From the IMG/VR virus record IMGVR_UViG_3300029190_000033, positions 1 to 5,495 of that record: a DNA stretch of 5,495 nt; one strand, 5' to 3'. The translations under genes were made by a program, and so were the position numbers. The stretch is from a virus (taxonomy: Duplodnaviria; Heunggongvirae; Uroviricota; Caudoviricetes). This document shows positions 1,440-4,969 of this stretch, piece by piece; positions within the stretch are counted from its first letter, which is position 1; each line of letters begins with the position of its first letter. Below the pieces are notes generated by a model. It was not told the DNA's origin. It saw only the letters and a list, made by a program, of their open reading frames with translations, and made no database searches.

Positions 1440-1464
1440 GCCCTCCAGTGTGAGGGCCTTTTTA
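1440..1464 (+). terminator. Rho-independent terminator (tL-like): GCCCTC / cagtgt / GAGGGC then CTTTTTAT
   Basis: Perfect 6-bp GC-rich stem, 6-nt loop, immediate T5 run, in noncoding DNA between the moron ORF and cIII. A weaker hairpin CGCTTC / ACTC / GAGGCG + TTTT lies at 1480-1499. Confidence 0.6.
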
Positions 1465-1529: not shown

Positions 1530-1700
1530 ATGCAACAGTTCGCTATTGCAGGGGCGGCATCGGTTCGCCCTTTCAACCCGATTTTATCGGTACAGCATTC
1601 ACGAAAAAACATTTTAACCGGAGCAGACTTTAAACAACCAAGAATGAAAAGTTTGCTCGAAAAGCTTTGGGATATTTTGAAACAACAAGGCCGTCCATGA
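1530..1700 (+). CDS. cIII: cIII-like protein (FtsH inhibitor family; P22 c3 / lambda cIII-like), 56 aa
   Basis: RBS AAGGAG 7 nt before ATG 1530. MQQFAIAG resembles the lambda CIII start MQYAIAG, and SLLEKLWDILKQQG resembles the CIII central helix (SLLERITRKL..RLIDILNQPG), as recalled. The track's longer ORF from 1425 would run through the terminator hairpin and is rejected. Confidence 0.7.
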   Translation: MQQFAIAGAASVRPFNPILSVQHSRKNILTGADFKQPRMKSLLEKLWDILKQQGRP

Positions 1701-1855
1701 GTTTTACAGATAACTGGTCAGACGAAGAATTCATTCGTCAGATGAAAGAATTAATCGGTAACGAAGGAGATATTCATGTCACTTGCAACCACAGTGAAGG
1801 AGAGCAAGTTACAGAGACGCATGTACACGCAGAAAGCTCTCTGGTATCGCCATAA
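1697..1855 (+). CDS. Small hypothetical protein, 52 aa, in the kil position (Kil-like candidate)
   Basis: ATG 1697 overlaps the cIII stop (ATGA), with AAGG 6 nt upstream. Overlaps the next candidate ORF by 80 nt in another frame. Kil assignment is by synteny only. Confidence 0.5.
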   Translation: MSFTDNWSDEEFIRQMKELIGNEGDIHVTCNHSEGEQVTETHVHAESSLVSP

Positions 1856-1946
1856 TGGTGACCGCGAAGGAATGCGGGTATGCCTTAATTTGTCCCGAGT
1901 CGAAGTATTAAATCAGCGTTATTTTCTTGGGCCGTGTCCATTCTGA
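1776..1946 (+). CDS. Small hypothetical protein, 56 aa, immediately upstream of erf (Arf-like candidate)
   Basis: Not in the ORF track; found by manual translation: MSLATTVKESKLQRRMYTQKALWYRHNGDREGMRVCLNLSRVEVLNQRYFLGPCPF. Perfect RBS AAGGAG 6 nt before ATG 1776; stop TGA is 10 nt before the erf ATG. Arf assignment is by position only. Confidence 0.4.
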   Translation: MSLATTVKESKLQRRMYTQKALWYRHNGDREGMRVCLNLSRVEVLNQRYFLGPCPF

Positions 1947-1956
1947 GATCAAACAT

Positions 1957-2553
1957 ATGAGCAAAGAATTTTATGCAAGGCTGGCAGCCATTCAGGAGAA
2001 TCTGAACGCGCCAAAGAATCAGTACAACTCATTCGGCAAATATAAATACAGAAGCTGCGAAGACATTCTTGAAGGCGTTAAGCCGTTACTGAATGGCCTG
2101 TTTTTATCAATCAGCGATGAAGTTGTGTTGATTGGTGATCGGTATTACGTGAAAGCAACGGCAACTATTACTGATGGCGAAAACAGTCATACAGCAACCG
2201 CTCTTGCACGAGAGGAAGAAAGCAAGAAAGGAATGGATTCTGCACAAGTTACGGGCGCTACAAGCTCTTATGCACGCAAGTATTGCCTCAATGGTTTGTT
2301 CGGCATTGATGATGCGAAAGATGCAGATACCGACGAGCATAAACATCAGCAGAACGCAGCAGCAAAGCAATCAAAACCATCACCTACACCTGAACAGGTT
2401 CTAAAAGCATTCACTGACGCAGCATTGCAGAAAAACNNNNNNNNNNNNNCGTTCGCCAAAGCGTGGAAGATGCTCGAAGGCACACCGGAGCAGCACAAAG
2501 CGCAGGACGTTTACAACATCAGACGAGACGAATTAGAAGGAGCGGCTGCTTAA
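1957..2553 (+). CDS. erf: Erf-family single-strand annealing recombinase (P22 essential recombination function), 198 aa
   Basis: N-terminal region MSKEFYARLAAIQENLNAPKNQYNSFGKYKYRSCEDILEGVKP...GATSSYARKYCLNGLFGIDDAKDAD closely matches P22 Erf as I recall it. Contains 13 masked bases (2437-2449); frame is maintained across them. Confidence 0.9.
   Translation: MSKEFYARLAAIQENLNAPKNQYNSFGKYKYRSCEDILEGVKPLLNGLFLSISDEVVLIGDRYYVKATATITDGENSHTATALAREEESKKGMDSAQVTGATSSYARKYCLNGLFGIDDAKDADTDEHKHQQNAAAKQSKPSPTPEQVLKAFTDAALQKNXXXXXFAKAWKMLEGTPEQHKAQDVYNIRRDELEGAAA
2437..2449. other. Run of 13 N (masked bases) inside erf
   Basis: Literal n characters; the erf frame continues across them, suggesting 1:1 masking. 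Confidence 0.95.
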
Positions 2554-2959: not shown

Positions 2960-3256
2960 ATGCCAGCGCCTCTGTATGGTGCGGATGACCCGCGCCGCTG
3001 TTCCGGCAATTCCGTATTGGAGGTGCTGGATAAATTCAGAAAAAACTACGATCGGATAATGTCGCTACCGCAGGAAGCGAAAGAGGAAAAGGAATTTCGC
3101 CACTGTATATGGCTTGCAGAGAAAGAAGAACGCGAGCGAATTTACCAGACATCAATCCGACCATTCCGTAAAGCCACATATACCCACTTCCCTGAATATA
3201 TCGACCCGCGCCTGCGTAATTACCGCTCACGCTATGGCGCTATCAGTAATGACTGA
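2960..3256 (+). CDS. Hypothetical protein, 98 aa; candidate Abc2-like anti-RecBCD protein
   Basis: RBS TAAGGA 7 nt before ATG 2960. Occupies the abc position downstream of erf in the P22 PL operon and is the right size (about 97 aa); sequence identity to Abc2 is not verified. Confidence 0.5.
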   Translation: MPAPLYGADDPRRCSGNSVLEVLDKFRKNYDRIMSLPQEAKEEKEFRHCIWLAEKEERERIYQTSIRPFRKATYTHFPEYIDPRLRNYRSRYGAISND

Positions 3257-4203: not shown

Positions 4204-4969
4204 GCAAGATTGACTATCAGGCACTGCGTGAAAAAGCAGAGAAAGCAACTAAAGGAAGCTACATCGNNNNNNNNNNNNNNNNNNNNNNNNCGGCAATTTA
4301 ACAGGAGTTTTTGTTTGTCAAAAATGGAAAGGAGAGCCAGGTGGCGTGATTGCAGAATGTCACGTTAACTGCCTGGTTGAAACAGATGCTCAGGCTTATG
4401 CAAACGCAGAATTCATAGCAGAGGCTAACCCAGCTACCGTACTGGCACTACTGGATGAACGGGAAAGAAACCAGCAATACATCAAACGCCGTGACCAGGA
4501 GAACGAGGATATTACGCTAACGGTAGGGAAGCTGCGTGTTGAGCTTGAAGCAGCAGAGAACAACCTTATTGATAGTGAATGCCATGTTGCTGAACTGGAA
4601 GAAGCGCTACGCGATAAGCAGGCGTTACTTGAAGCCTCAGAAAAGCGCAACGCAAAATTACAAAGCGAGAATGCATACATCCGCAACCGGTTCAAAGAAC
4701 TGGACCTATTAATGGGGAAAAACATTCTGGTCATGCAGGCTGCCATTATCGAATGGCAGGCAACTGGCGACGCTAAGAGCGGACTAGCATGGATTTATAA
4801 CACACTGTTTGGCCCTGGCGAATTACCGGACGAATCTGAGAAAGATGCTCAGGCCTACTTTAATCGCAAATATGCACCGATTGACGAAAAGCTTATGGCG
4901 CTTCACAAGTGGTTTTGGGAACAAAGTGAAGCCGAGCGCGCCGCTGGCATTGGCATCAAAGGAGAGTGA
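4200..4969 (+). CDS. Ead/Ea22-like phage protein, interrupted by 24 masked bases; coiled-coil C-terminal half
   Basis: RBS AGGAGG 7 nt before GTG 4200. N-terminus [21 protein letters not shown] and downstream AQAYANAEFIAEANPATVLALLDERE are typical of Ead/Ea22-like proteins as recalled. Reading frame before the N-run differs from the frame of the long ORF ending at 4969, so the true start is uncertain (could be 4346). Confidence 0.6.
4267..4290. other. Run of 24 N (masked bases) inside the Ead/Ea22-like gene
   Basis: Literal n characters; the frames on either side are not the same. Confidence 0.95.

What the first reader, a model, noticed from the sequence alone, without database searches (positions are those of the whole stretch)
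1697..1946. Two overlapping small ORFs in different frames in the kil/arf position
ORF 1697-1855 is coupled to cIII through an ATGA overlap. ORF 1776-1946 has a perfect AAGGAG RBS and ends 10 nt before the erf ATG. They overlap by 80 nt in different frames, so either both are expressed as a genuine overlapping pair or one is spurious. The P22 PL operon has kil and arf here.
Basis: partly seen in the sequence, partly recalled or inferred. Interest (0 to 1): 0.5.

Follow-up and report, generated by a model that had tools for sequence, protein, structure and literature searches.

The report
Two overlapping small genes before erf
Both small overlapping reading frames between cIII and the erf recombinase gene look like real genes that phage Sf6 already annotates, one resembling the P22 recombination helper Arf and the other belonging to the HK620 HkaM family, and neither is Kil.

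Summary
ORF1 (1697-1855, 52 aa) starts in an ATGA overlap with the cIII stop. ORF2 (1776-1946, 56 aa) has AAGGAG 6 nt upstream and ends 10 nt before the erf ATG. They overlap by 80 nt, with ORF2 in the +1 frame.

The pair is already annotated: both proteins are 100% identical to Sf6 genes 30 and 29, and correspond to HK022 gp42.1 and gp42.

ORF2 is a well-conserved gene (PHROG 1723). HK620 HkaM belongs to this family. It is a basic helical hairpin that always lies 1-13 nt upstream of a single-strand-annealing recombinase gene of whatever type. It is under purifying selection, including inside the overlap.

ORF1 (PHROG 2123) has a conserved acidic N-terminal helix. This head resembles the N-terminus of P22 Arf weakly but above shuffled controls. 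It is always (A/G)TGA-coupled to the upstream gene, and it also occurs without ORF2.

The ORF1 tail inside the overlap is not conserved in sequence. Its frame, however, stays open for at least 68 nt in all 9 lineage clusters that have the head, against 2 of 11 that lack it.

Neither ORF is Kil. The lambda-type kil gene sits upstream of ORF1 in relatives and is absent from this window. No expression data exist and the function is unknown. Interest is low to moderate.

The parts
1530..1700 (+). cIII (56-aa allele of the HK140/SEN22 type). Its stop TGA overlaps the ORF1 start in ATGA.
   Evidence: PHROG 550, E=1e-22. Sequence. The same cIII-ATGA-ORF1 junction occurs in L010, L011 and L012.
1697..1855 (+). 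ORF1, 52 aa, acidic (pI 4.4). Identical to Sf6 gene 30 and corresponding to HK022 gp42.1 (PHROG 2123). It has an Arf-like N-terminal head and an unconserved tail.
   Evidence: hhalign against a P22 Arf profile gives P=5e-4, and 0 of 200 column-shuffled controls reach that score. AlphaFold2 predicts a helix at residues 9-20 and a low-confidence tail.
1697..1774 (+). ORF1 head (codons 1-26). This is the non-overlapping, conserved part, MSFTDNWSDEEFIRQMKELIGNEGDI.
   Evidence: dN/dS is 0.2-0.4 against divergent lineages. The head is present with different tails and without ORF2 in HK140/SEN22-type phages.
1764..1769 (+). Shine-Dalgarno sequence AAGGAG for ORF2. It lies inside ORF1 codons N22-E23-G24-D25.
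   Evidence: A GGAG or GAGG motif lies a few nt upstream of the ORF2 ATG in all 23 lineage representatives, whether or not ORF1 is present.
1776..1855 (+). The 80-nt dual-coding overlap: ORF2 codons 1-27 and ORF1 codons 27-52. The sequence here is constrained by the ORF2 frame.
   Evidence: Among sporadic polymorphisms, 11 are synonymous in ORF2 and non-synonymous in ORF1, 1 is the reverse and 3 change both. ORF1 tail dN/dS is 1.4-6.3, against 0.1-0.6 for ORF2 over the same bases.
1776..1946 (+). ORF2, 56 aa, basic (pI 10.0). Identical to Sf6 gene 29 and corresponding to HK022 gp42. It belongs to the HK620 HkaM family (PHROG 1723) and is a helical hairpin with a conserved C-terminal ...NQRYFLGxCPF.
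   Evidence: AlphaFold2 gives pLDDT 92.8 with helices 7-27 and 30-49. In the C-terminal part pN is 0.11-0.37 against pS 0.53-1.05.
1957..2553 (+). erf, a single-strand-annealing protein. It is the gene that ORF2-family genes always precede.
   Evidence: Pfam PF04404, E=2.3e-44. The gap between the ORF2 stop and the recombinase start is 1-13 nt in 20 lineages carrying five unrelated recombinase N-domains.

Best explanation
Both ORFs are real, separately initiated genes of the PL-operon recombination module. Their 80-nt out-of-phase overlap is a by-product of gene packing, not a special device.

**ORF2** is the dominant frame in the overlap. It encodes a small basic helical-hairpin protein of the HkaM family and starts from its own strong Shine-Dalgarno sequence. 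Its stop codon lies 10 nt before the erf start, so its translation is probably coupled to that of erf.

**ORF1** encodes a small acidic protein. Its functional part is a roughly 20-residue N-terminal amphipathic helix (WSDEEFIRQM), related to the N-terminus of P22 Arf. ORF1 is translated by coupling to cIII through the ATGA overlap. Its disordered, hydrophilic tail simply runs on into ORF2. The tail's sequence is free to follow ORF2's synonymous changes, but its reading frame is kept open, so some length of tail appears to be needed.

**Shown here:**
- the identity of both families;
- purifying selection on ORF2 and on the ORF1 head;
- the lack of sequence constraint on the ORF1 tail;
- the conserved coupling signals;
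- the position next to the recombinase gene.

**Inferred, not shown:**
- that both proteins are made;
- that both act as accessory factors for the annealing recombinase, as genetics showed for P22 Arf. HkaM was dispensable for oligonucleotide recombineering.
For: **ORF2**
- It matches PHROG 1723 over its full length.
- HK620 HkaM matches the ORF2 profile at E=3e-23.
- Homologues down to 36% identity occur in phages of Escherichia, Salmonella, Enterobacter, Erwinia, Yersinia and Serratia.
- They always lie 1-13 nt upstream of an Erf-type, Sak4 or P-loop recombinase gene, with the stop usually inside or next to a GAGG/AGGT motif.
- pN is far below pS in both halves of the gene.
- ORF2 exists without ORF1 in S9-5, HK620, Stx phages, and Erwinia and Yersinia loci.
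- The structural model is confident: pLDDT 92.8.

**ORF1**
- It matches PHROG 2123.
- Head dN/dS is 0.2-0.4.
- The start is always ATGA or GTGA on the stop of the upstream gene, in 12 of 12 lineages and behind several different upstream sequences, including cIII and kil.
- The mosaic breakpoint falls exactly at 1697.
- A 35-aa form occurs without ORF2, ahead of RecT or RecE modules.
- Similarity to Arf: PHROG 2445 E=0.02-0.07, always in the same register; BLASTP 47% identity over 17 aa; hhalign P=5e-4 with 0 of 200 shuffles as good.
- ORF1 is acidic like Arf: pI 4.4 against 4.05.
- One public source names a close relative 'accessory recombination function protein' (P0049).

**Overlap**
- The ORF1 frame stays open for 68-137 nt into ORF2 in 9 of 9 lineage clusters with a head. 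It does so in only 2 of 11 clusters without one. I computed Fisher's exact P=3e-4 by hand from the cluster table.
- Head-less lineages close the frame with changes that are synonymous in ORF2, for example GTG to GTT, which creates a TGA.
- 73 of 74 loci sampled without bias towards the overlap keep both frames intact.
Against: - There is no direct expression evidence for either protein, such as ribosome profiling or proteomics. None was found in the paper searches.
- The ORF1 tail shows no sequence constraint (dN/dS above 1).
- Taken one lineage at a time, the open ORF1 frame is not significant. Synonymous-codon resampling gives P=0.12-0.35 per lineage and a combined P of 0.04 if the lineages are treated as independent.
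- The lineage clusters used for the association test are not phylogenetically independent.
- The similarity to Arf spans only about 22 residues of acidic sequence. HHalign probability is 31-57%.
- No function is known for the HkaM family. sak4 plus ssb alone gave the recombineering level of the whole HK620 module (PMC5928155).
- The ORF2 fold is a generic hairpin with no informative structural match.
Confidence: 0.7

Rival explanations
1. Only ORF2 is a gene. ORF1 is a chance open frame, kept open because the overlapping ORF2 sequence is conserved and because gene callers favour an ATG at the end of cIII or kil.
For: The ORF1 tail has dN/dS above 1. In the overlap, polymorphisms are almost all silent in ORF2 and often radical in ORF1. 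Per-lineage open-frame tests are not significant. ORF1 has no Pfam or NCBIfam family. ORF2 lineages do well without it.
Against: The non-overlapping ORF1 head is conserved at the protein level across lineages whose synonymous sites differ by 30-50%. The (A/G)TGA start is kept behind several different upstream genes. The head occurs with unrelated tails and without any ORF2. The frame is open in 9 of 9 clusters with a head against 2 of 11 without. Similarity to Arf exceeds shuffled controls.
Confidence: 0.12
2. The functional product is an ORF1-ORF2 fusion made by programmed +1 ribosomal frameshifting within the overlap. HK97 gp42.1 would then be a hard-wired version of that product.
For: HK97 carries an in-frame fusion of ORF1(1-44) to ORF2(19-56). 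The protein database holds several 82-aa fusions with different junctions, one of which (P0021) is seen on 36 contigs. ORF2 is in the +1 frame relative to ORF1 in every lineage.
Against: Fusions are rare: 1 of 74 in the unbiased sample, and that one is HK97 itself. Their junctions are scattered, as expected from random 1-nt deletions or sequencing errors. The HK97 fusion needs two separate 1-nt insertions 6 nt apart in a sequence deposited in 2000. The overlap has no X XXY YYZ heptamer and no homopolymer of 4 or more bases. There is no notable RNA structure. ORF2 has its own conserved Shine-Dalgarno sequence and ATG and occurs alone in many phages. A rigorous scan for +1 frameshift motifs was not done.
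Confidence: 0.03
3. One reading: the two ORFs are the kil and arf equivalents of P22, so one of them is a host-killing cell-division inhibitor.
For: The position between cIII and erf matches that of kil and arf in P22. Some database records label this stretch 'kil protein', for example IME10.
Against: Neither ORF gives any BLASTP alignment to P22 Kil or to lambda-type Kil, even at E up to 100. Neither has a Pfam match. Relatives carry a separate lambda-type kil upstream of the same pair, so the pair is not the Kil function. P22 has no ORF2 homologue.
Confidence: 0.04
4. ORF2 is mainly a translated leader whose job is to deliver ribosomes to the recombinase start codon. The peptide itself would be unimportant.
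For: The ORF2 stop lies 1-13 nt from the recombinase start in every lineage and is usually next to a GAGG/AGGT motif. No biochemical function is known. HkaM was dispensable for recombineering from a plasmid (PMC5928155).
Against: The amino-acid sequence is strongly conserved while synonymous sites are saturated. Columns S10, R14, A21, R25, P55 and F56 are invariant across 61 sequences. The fold prediction is confident. A pure leader would not keep a 56-62-aa protein sequence. Coupling may still be an additional role.
Confidence: 0.08

Closest known systems
Shigella phage Sf6 genes 30 and 29 (also HK022 gp42.1/gp42, CUS-3, HK106, ECP1)
   Same: Both proteins are 100% identical to the Sf6 proteins. 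Sf6 annotates 159-nt and 171-nt genes with the same 80-nt overlap, directly upstream of erf.
   Different: In Sf6 and most relatives ORF1 is ATGA-coupled to a lambda-type kil gene. Here it is coupled directly to a different cIII allele and there is no kil.
HK620 HkaM (NP_112046), originally annotated 'arf' by position
   Same: It belongs to the same family as ORF2 (68 bits against the ORF2 profile; PHROG 1723 E=3.6e-33). It is also a small basic protein ending in ...FL...PF and lying just upstream of the annealing recombinase gene.
   Different: It belongs to the 62-aa subgroup, about 36% identical. It precedes sak4 rather than erf and follows kil with no ORF1-like gene overlapping it. Its function is unknown (PMC5928155).
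P22 Arf (accessory recombination function, 47 aa)
   Same: ORF1 shares the N-terminal (F/W)SDEEFI motif in the same register, as well as small size and acidity. Both lie in the PL operon between cIII/kil and the recombinase gene.
   Different: Arf is ATGA-coupled directly to erf, which is the slot that ORF2 occupies here. The Arf C-terminal half has no counterpart in ORF1. It also shows no significant similarity to ORF2 (P=0.33). Arf's role in recombination rests on P22 genetics (Poteete et al. 1991, cited in PMC12315714). Nothing has been tested for ORF1.
HK97 gp42.1 and gp42
   Same: Same locus, 96% nucleotide identity.
   Different: Two 1-nt insertions fuse ORF1 codons 1-44 to ORF2 codons 19-56, giving one 83-aa frame. 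HK97 'gp42' is an internal start in that fused frame.

Membership tests
HkaM / PHROG 1723 family (for ORF2) | Full-length match to the family profile | tested here: met
   PHROG 1723 E=9.4e-36, covering residues 1-56. HkaM scores 68 bits against the ORF2-family profile.
HkaM / PHROG 1723 family (for ORF2) | Located immediately upstream of the single-strand-annealing recombinase gene in the PL operon | tested here: met
   The gap to erf is 10 nt. The gap is 1-13 nt in 20 lineage representatives.
HkaM / PHROG 1723 family (for ORF2) | 56-62 aa, two-helix hairpin, conserved C-terminal F-L-(G/A)...P-F | tested here: met
   Alignment A2 has invariant S10, R14, A21, R25, P55 and F56. The AlphaFold2 model has pLDDT 92.8.
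PHROG 2123 (Sf6 gp30 / HK022 gp42.1) (for ORF1) | Full-length match to the family profile | tested here: met
   E=6.6e-42, covering residues 1-52. ORF1 is 100% identical to Sf6 gene 30.
P22 Arf / PHROG 2445 (for ORF1) | Significant sequence similarity to Arf | tested here: inconclusive
   PHROG 2445 E=0.037, covering the N-terminal 22 residues only. hhalign P=5e-4 with probability 31-57%; 0 of 200 column shuffles reach the score. BLASTP E=0.015 over 17 aa.
P22 Arf / PHROG 2445 (for ORF1) | Gene directly upstream of, and ATGA-coupled to, the recombinase gene | tested here: not met
   ORF2 lies between ORF1 and erf. ORF1 is coupled to cIII instead. P22-type arf genes are ATGA-coupled to the recombinase gene in most lineages examined.
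P22 Arf / PHROG 2445 (for ORF1) | Small acidic protein | tested here: met
   ORF1 is 52 aa with pI 4.4 and 11 D/E against 2 K/R. Arf is 47 aa with pI 4.05.
P22 Arf / PHROG 2445 (for ORF1) | Stimulates Erf-dependent recombination | not testable with these tools
   This needs phage genetics. For P22 it is known only from Poteete et al. 1991, as cited in PMC12315714.
Kil (lambda-type or P22-type) (for either ORF) | Sequence similarity to a Kil protein | tested here: not met
   No BLASTP alignment to P22 Kil or HK620 Kil at E up to 100. No Pfam family. No lambda-Kil motif anywhere in the window.
Kil (lambda-type or P22-type) (for either ORF) | Is the only candidate division inhibitor at this position | tested here: not met
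   Sf6, HK97, HK022 and HK620 each carry a separate lambda-type kil upstream of the same ORFs.
Programmed-frameshift gene pair | Slippery site or stimulatory RNA structure in the overlap, conserved among relatives | tested here: not met
   No X XXY YYZ heptamer and no homopolymer of 4 or more bases in 1776-1855. Fold z-scores range from -1.4 to +0.8. No Rfam match. A rigorous scan for +1 motifs was not done.

The most novel reading that the evidence does not exclude
ORF1 (acidic, Arf-like) and ORF2 (basic, HkaM-like) would be the two halves of one accessory module that works with whichever annealing recombinase follows it. The rare natural in-frame fusions (HK97 gp42.1; P0021 on 36 contigs) would then be Rosetta-stone hints that the two proteins act together physically. 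P22 Arf, which occupies the ORF2 slot but carries the ORF1 motif, would be a one-protein version of the same function.
Probability: 0.15. Interest if true: 0.5.

Novelty: already known. Interest (0 to 1): 0.27.

Why it matters
The practical point concerns annotation. This block is present in about a fifth of complete E. coli genomes and is annotated inconsistently.

- In the RefSeq genome I inspected, ORF1 is called and the better-conserved ORF2 is not.
- Some phage records call only one ORF of the pair.
- PHROGs labels both families 'recombinase'.
- Some records label the stretch 'kil'.

Two links may help future work. ORF2 belongs to the HkaM family. ORF1 resembles Arf. Together these give two very small proteins of unknown function that sit next to every type of lambdoid annealing recombinase. 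They are candidates for the accessory factors that P22 genetics pointed to and that remain unexplained at the molecular level.

The overlap itself is an ordinary case. One constrained frame sits over the unconstrained, disordered tail of its neighbour.

Tried and rejected
1. **P22 Arf as a fusion of an ORF1 head and an ORF2 tail.** By eye, INLAAERQN...EFAG resembles LNLSRVEVLNQRYFLG. hhalign of the Arf profile against the ORF2 family gives P=0.33, so I rejected the idea.
2. **Structural clue for ORF2.** Foldseek against the PDB gave only generic helical hairpins, with no hit at E of 0.001 or better.
3. **Regulatory RNA or terminator within 1697-1946.** There is no Rfam match. Fold z-scores are unremarkable. 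The only terminator-like hairpins lie upstream of cIII, at 1440-1497.
4. **Codon-resampling test of the open ORF1 frame.** It is not significant per lineage (P=0.12-0.35). I used the association with presence of the ORF1 head instead.
5. **The first set of 80 viral loci** was selected for 100% ORF2 identity and is therefore biased. I did not use it for counting substitutions. I replaced it with a sample retrieved through a 23-mer in the ORF1 head.
6. **A second tblastn with the S9-5 ORF2** added nothing new. HK620 HkaM was found only after reading PMC5928155.
7. **My ad hoc scan for +1 re-pairing sites** was in the wrong register and its logic was flawed. I do not rely on it.
8. **Other profile libraries.** NCBIfam and Pfam have no families for either ORF. 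PADLOC was not searched.
9. **Literature searches** for HK97 gp42 and for HkaM found no functional study beyond PMC5928155.

Full report
**Observation**

The window is a lambdoid PL-operon segment read in the direction of PL transcription. Its genes, in order:

| Coordinates | Gene | Evidence |
|---|---|---|
| 865-1335 | gp45-like ORF | |
| 1530-1700 | cIII | |
| 1697-1855 | ORF1 | |
| 1776-1946 | ORF2 | |
| 1957-2553 | erf | |
| 2553-2936 | SSB-like gene | |
| 2960-3256 | gene at the position where close relatives annotate abc2 | |

- The cIII stop and the ORF1 start share ATGA at 1697-1700.
- AAGGAG lies at 1764-1769, 6 nt before the ORF2 ATG.
- ORF1 ends with TAA at 1853-1855 and ORF2 with TGA at 1944-1946.
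- The erf ATG at 1957 lies 10 nt after the ORF2 stop.
- The overlap is 80 nt, with ORF2 in the +1 frame relative to ORF1.

**The pair is already annotated**

- ORF1 matches PHROG 2123 (E=6.6e-42) and ORF2 matches PHROG 1723 (E=9.4e-36), both over their full length.
- Both proteins are 100% identical to Sf6 genes 30 and 29. Sf6 annotates them with exactly this 80-nt overlap.
- HK022 annotates the equivalents as gp42.1 and gp42.
- The 250-nt block matches 1113 of 5426 complete E. coli genomes, and 856 of those cover at least 80% of it.
- In most relatives the homology starts exactly at 1697, and a lambda-type kil gene rather than cIII is ATGA-joined to ORF1.
- This window has no kil-like sequence.

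**ORF2**

Distribution and context:
- Homologues from 100% down to about 36% identity occur in phages and prophages of Escherichia, Salmonella, Enterobacter, Citrobacter, Serratia, Pantoea, Yersinia and Erwinia.
- The family is narrow. Only 29 clusters at 50% identity are found among 1.84 billion representative proteins.
- HK620 HkaM is a member (68 bits against my profile; PHROG 1723 E=3.6e-33).
- HkaM was first called 'arf' purely by position. Hutinet et al. 2018 describe it as an orphan of unknown function (PMC5928155).
- In 20 lineage representatives the next gene starts 1-13 nt after the ORF2 stop. That gene is always the annealing recombinase, although it belongs to five unrelated N-terminal types: three Erf types, Sak4 and a P-loop ATPase. 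S9-5 differs; there the next gene is annotated as an endonuclease.
- The stop codon is usually followed directly by a GAGG or AGGT motif.
- Every lineage has a GGAG or GAGG motif a few nt before the ORF2 ATG.

Selection and structure:
- Against the window sequence, the C-terminal half has pN 0.11-0.37 and pS 0.53-1.05.
- The N-terminal half, which is the overlap zone, has dN/dS of 0.1-0.6.
- AlphaFold2 on a 61-sequence alignment gives a confident two-helix hairpin (pLDDT 92.8).
- Foldseek finds nothing specific for that fold.
- The protein is basic, with pI 10.0.

**ORF1**

- The first 21-26 residues are conserved in lineages whose ORF2 is only 36-77% identical. Head dN/dS is 0.2-0.4.
- The start is ATGA or GTGA on the stop of the upstream gene in 12 of 12 lineages, behind several different upstream sequences.
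- The same head occurs with a short acidic tail as a 35-aa protein, MSFTDNWSDEEFIRQMNKMLNQHKEQEKDDDSDSE. This form is found in HK140- and SEN22-type phages, which lack ORF2 and use RecT- or RecE-type modules. The gene is not annotated there.
- AlphaFold2 predicts a helix at residues 9-20 and a low-confidence tail.
- The protein is acidic, with pI 4.4.

**Relation of ORF1 to P22 Arf**

P22 has c3, kil, arf and erf in this order. Arf is MQHEFSDEEFIALISPEIEEEVEQQINLAAERQNPIIGWDEFAGYYS.
- ORF1-type proteins hit the Arf PHROG at E=0.02-0.07, always in the same register.
- BLASTP gives 47% identity over 17 residues.
- Profile-profile comparison gives P=5e-4, and none of 200 column-shuffled controls reaches the score.

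I read this as probable but unproven distant homology, limited to the N-terminal helix.

P22-type Arf is itself found ATGA-coupled to several recombinase types. It therefore occupies the slot that ORF2 holds here. Arf aids Erf recombination but its molecular role is unknown (PMC12315714). It has been suggested to be a DNA mimic (PMC9836394).

**The overlap**

I took a sample of 74 loci (57 haplotypes) retrieved through a 23-mer in the ORF1 head. This sample is unbiased with respect to the overlap.
- Of the sporadic polymorphisms inside the overlap, 11 are silent in ORF2 and change ORF1, often radically (C30R, S33R, E34K, A45P).
- One is silent in ORF1 and changes ORF2. Three change both.
- Between lineages, the ORF1 tail has dN/dS of 1.4-6.3.

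ORF2 therefore sets the sequence of the overlap, and the ORF1 tail follows.

The ORF1 frame is nevertheless kept open. I clustered ORF2 lineages at 88% nucleotide identity.
- All 9 clusters with an ORF1 head keep that frame open for 68-137 nt past the ORF2 ATG.
- Of 11 clusters without a head, 9 close it after 11-47 nt, and 2 stay open for at least 68 nt.
- From that table I computed Fisher's exact P=3e-4 by hand. The clusters are not fully independent.
- Closure uses changes that are silent in ORF2, such as Val GTG to GTT creating a TGA.
- Synonymous-codon resampling alone is weak, with P=0.12-0.35 per lineage.

**Frameshift variants**

- HK97 has two 1-nt insertions 6 nt apart. They fuse ORF1(1-44) to ORF2(19-56), which explains its odd gp42.1/gp42 annotation.
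- The protein database holds singleton 82-aa fusions with scattered junctions, plus one seen on 36 contigs.
- Fusions account for 1 of 74 loci in the unbiased sample, and that one is HK97 itself.
- I found no slippery heptamer, no homopolymer, no RNA structure and no Rfam match.

Programmed frameshifting is therefore unlikely.

**Verdict**

- The 'genuine overlapping pair' reading is favoured, with about 0.7 confidence that both ORFs are real genes. I put ORF2 at about 0.95 and ORF1 at about 0.8.
- The kil/arf labelling is wrong for Kil and only loosely right for Arf.
- The feature is already annotated in Sf6 and HK022, and no function has been demonstrated.

Noticed in passing
window 2437-2449 and 4267-4290: Runs of N (masked bases) interrupt erf and a downstream ORF, so their translations contain X.
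   Followed up: no
window 1697 (junction) and 1530-1700: There is a mosaic breakpoint exactly at the ORF1 start. A 56-aa cIII allele of the HK140/SEN22/103203_sal5 type is joined directly to ORF1, and the window has no lambda-type kil. Most relatives have cIII, kil, ORF1 in that order.
   Followed up: partly
L471 (E. coli CFSAN027350, RefSeq) 701-950; L002; L012; L010/L011: Annotation is inconsistent. In the RefSeq genome the ORF1 equivalent is called and the better-conserved ORF2 equivalent is not. vB_EcoP-720R6 and 103203_sal5 also call only the ORF1-type gene. HK140 and SEN22 leave the 35-aa ORF1-like gene uncalled.
   Followed up: partly
PHROG 1723 and PHROG 2123: Both families of 52-58-aa proteins carry the label 'recombinase', and this label reappears in RefSeq phage annotation. 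It looks like a mislabel picked up from the neighbouring gene.
   Followed up: no
loci L192, L005, L012, L121, L172, L180, L195, L020 (gene after ORF2); window 1957-2553: Recombinase genes downstream of ORF2-family genes have unrelated N-terminal domains (three Erf types and a P-loop ATPase), yet most share a similar C-terminal segment of about 50 aa. This is the known Erf 'domain swap' pattern, here extended to an ATPase.
   Followed up: no
proteins P0052, P0062, P0047, P0058, P0061, P0036, P0054: The protein database holds several ORF1 variants. Some are in-frame deletions that graft the N-terminus of N, cIII or other proteins onto 'NWSDEEFIR...'. Others are tandem duplications of FIRQMKE, with 2 or 3 copies.
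   Followed up: no
L179, L182, L189, L191 (upstream of ORF2): There is a second ORF1 head type, MSIRDMSDEQFYHLM(K/R)DLIGSEGG. It lacks the Trp and looks slightly closer to P22 Arf.
   Followed up: partly
window 1440-1457 and 1478-1497: Two terminator-like hairpins lie upstream of cIII, at the position where relatives such as HK97 and HK620 annotate terminators in this region.
   Followed up: no
L001 (HK97) 1501-1752: HK97 gp42.1 is an ORF1-ORF2 fusion caused by two single-base insertions 6 nt apart (CATGT[C]ACACGC[G]AG). This may be a sequencing error in the 2000 record or a real laboratory-stock mutation.
   Followed up: partly
L005 (Erwinia phage vB_EhrS_59) 1355-1504: gp44 (49 aa) ends in ATGA on the ORF2-homologue start, and its C-terminus reads ...KDFDFIRALYEMVSPG, faintly like the ORF1 head. 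It had no PHROG match.
   Followed up: partly
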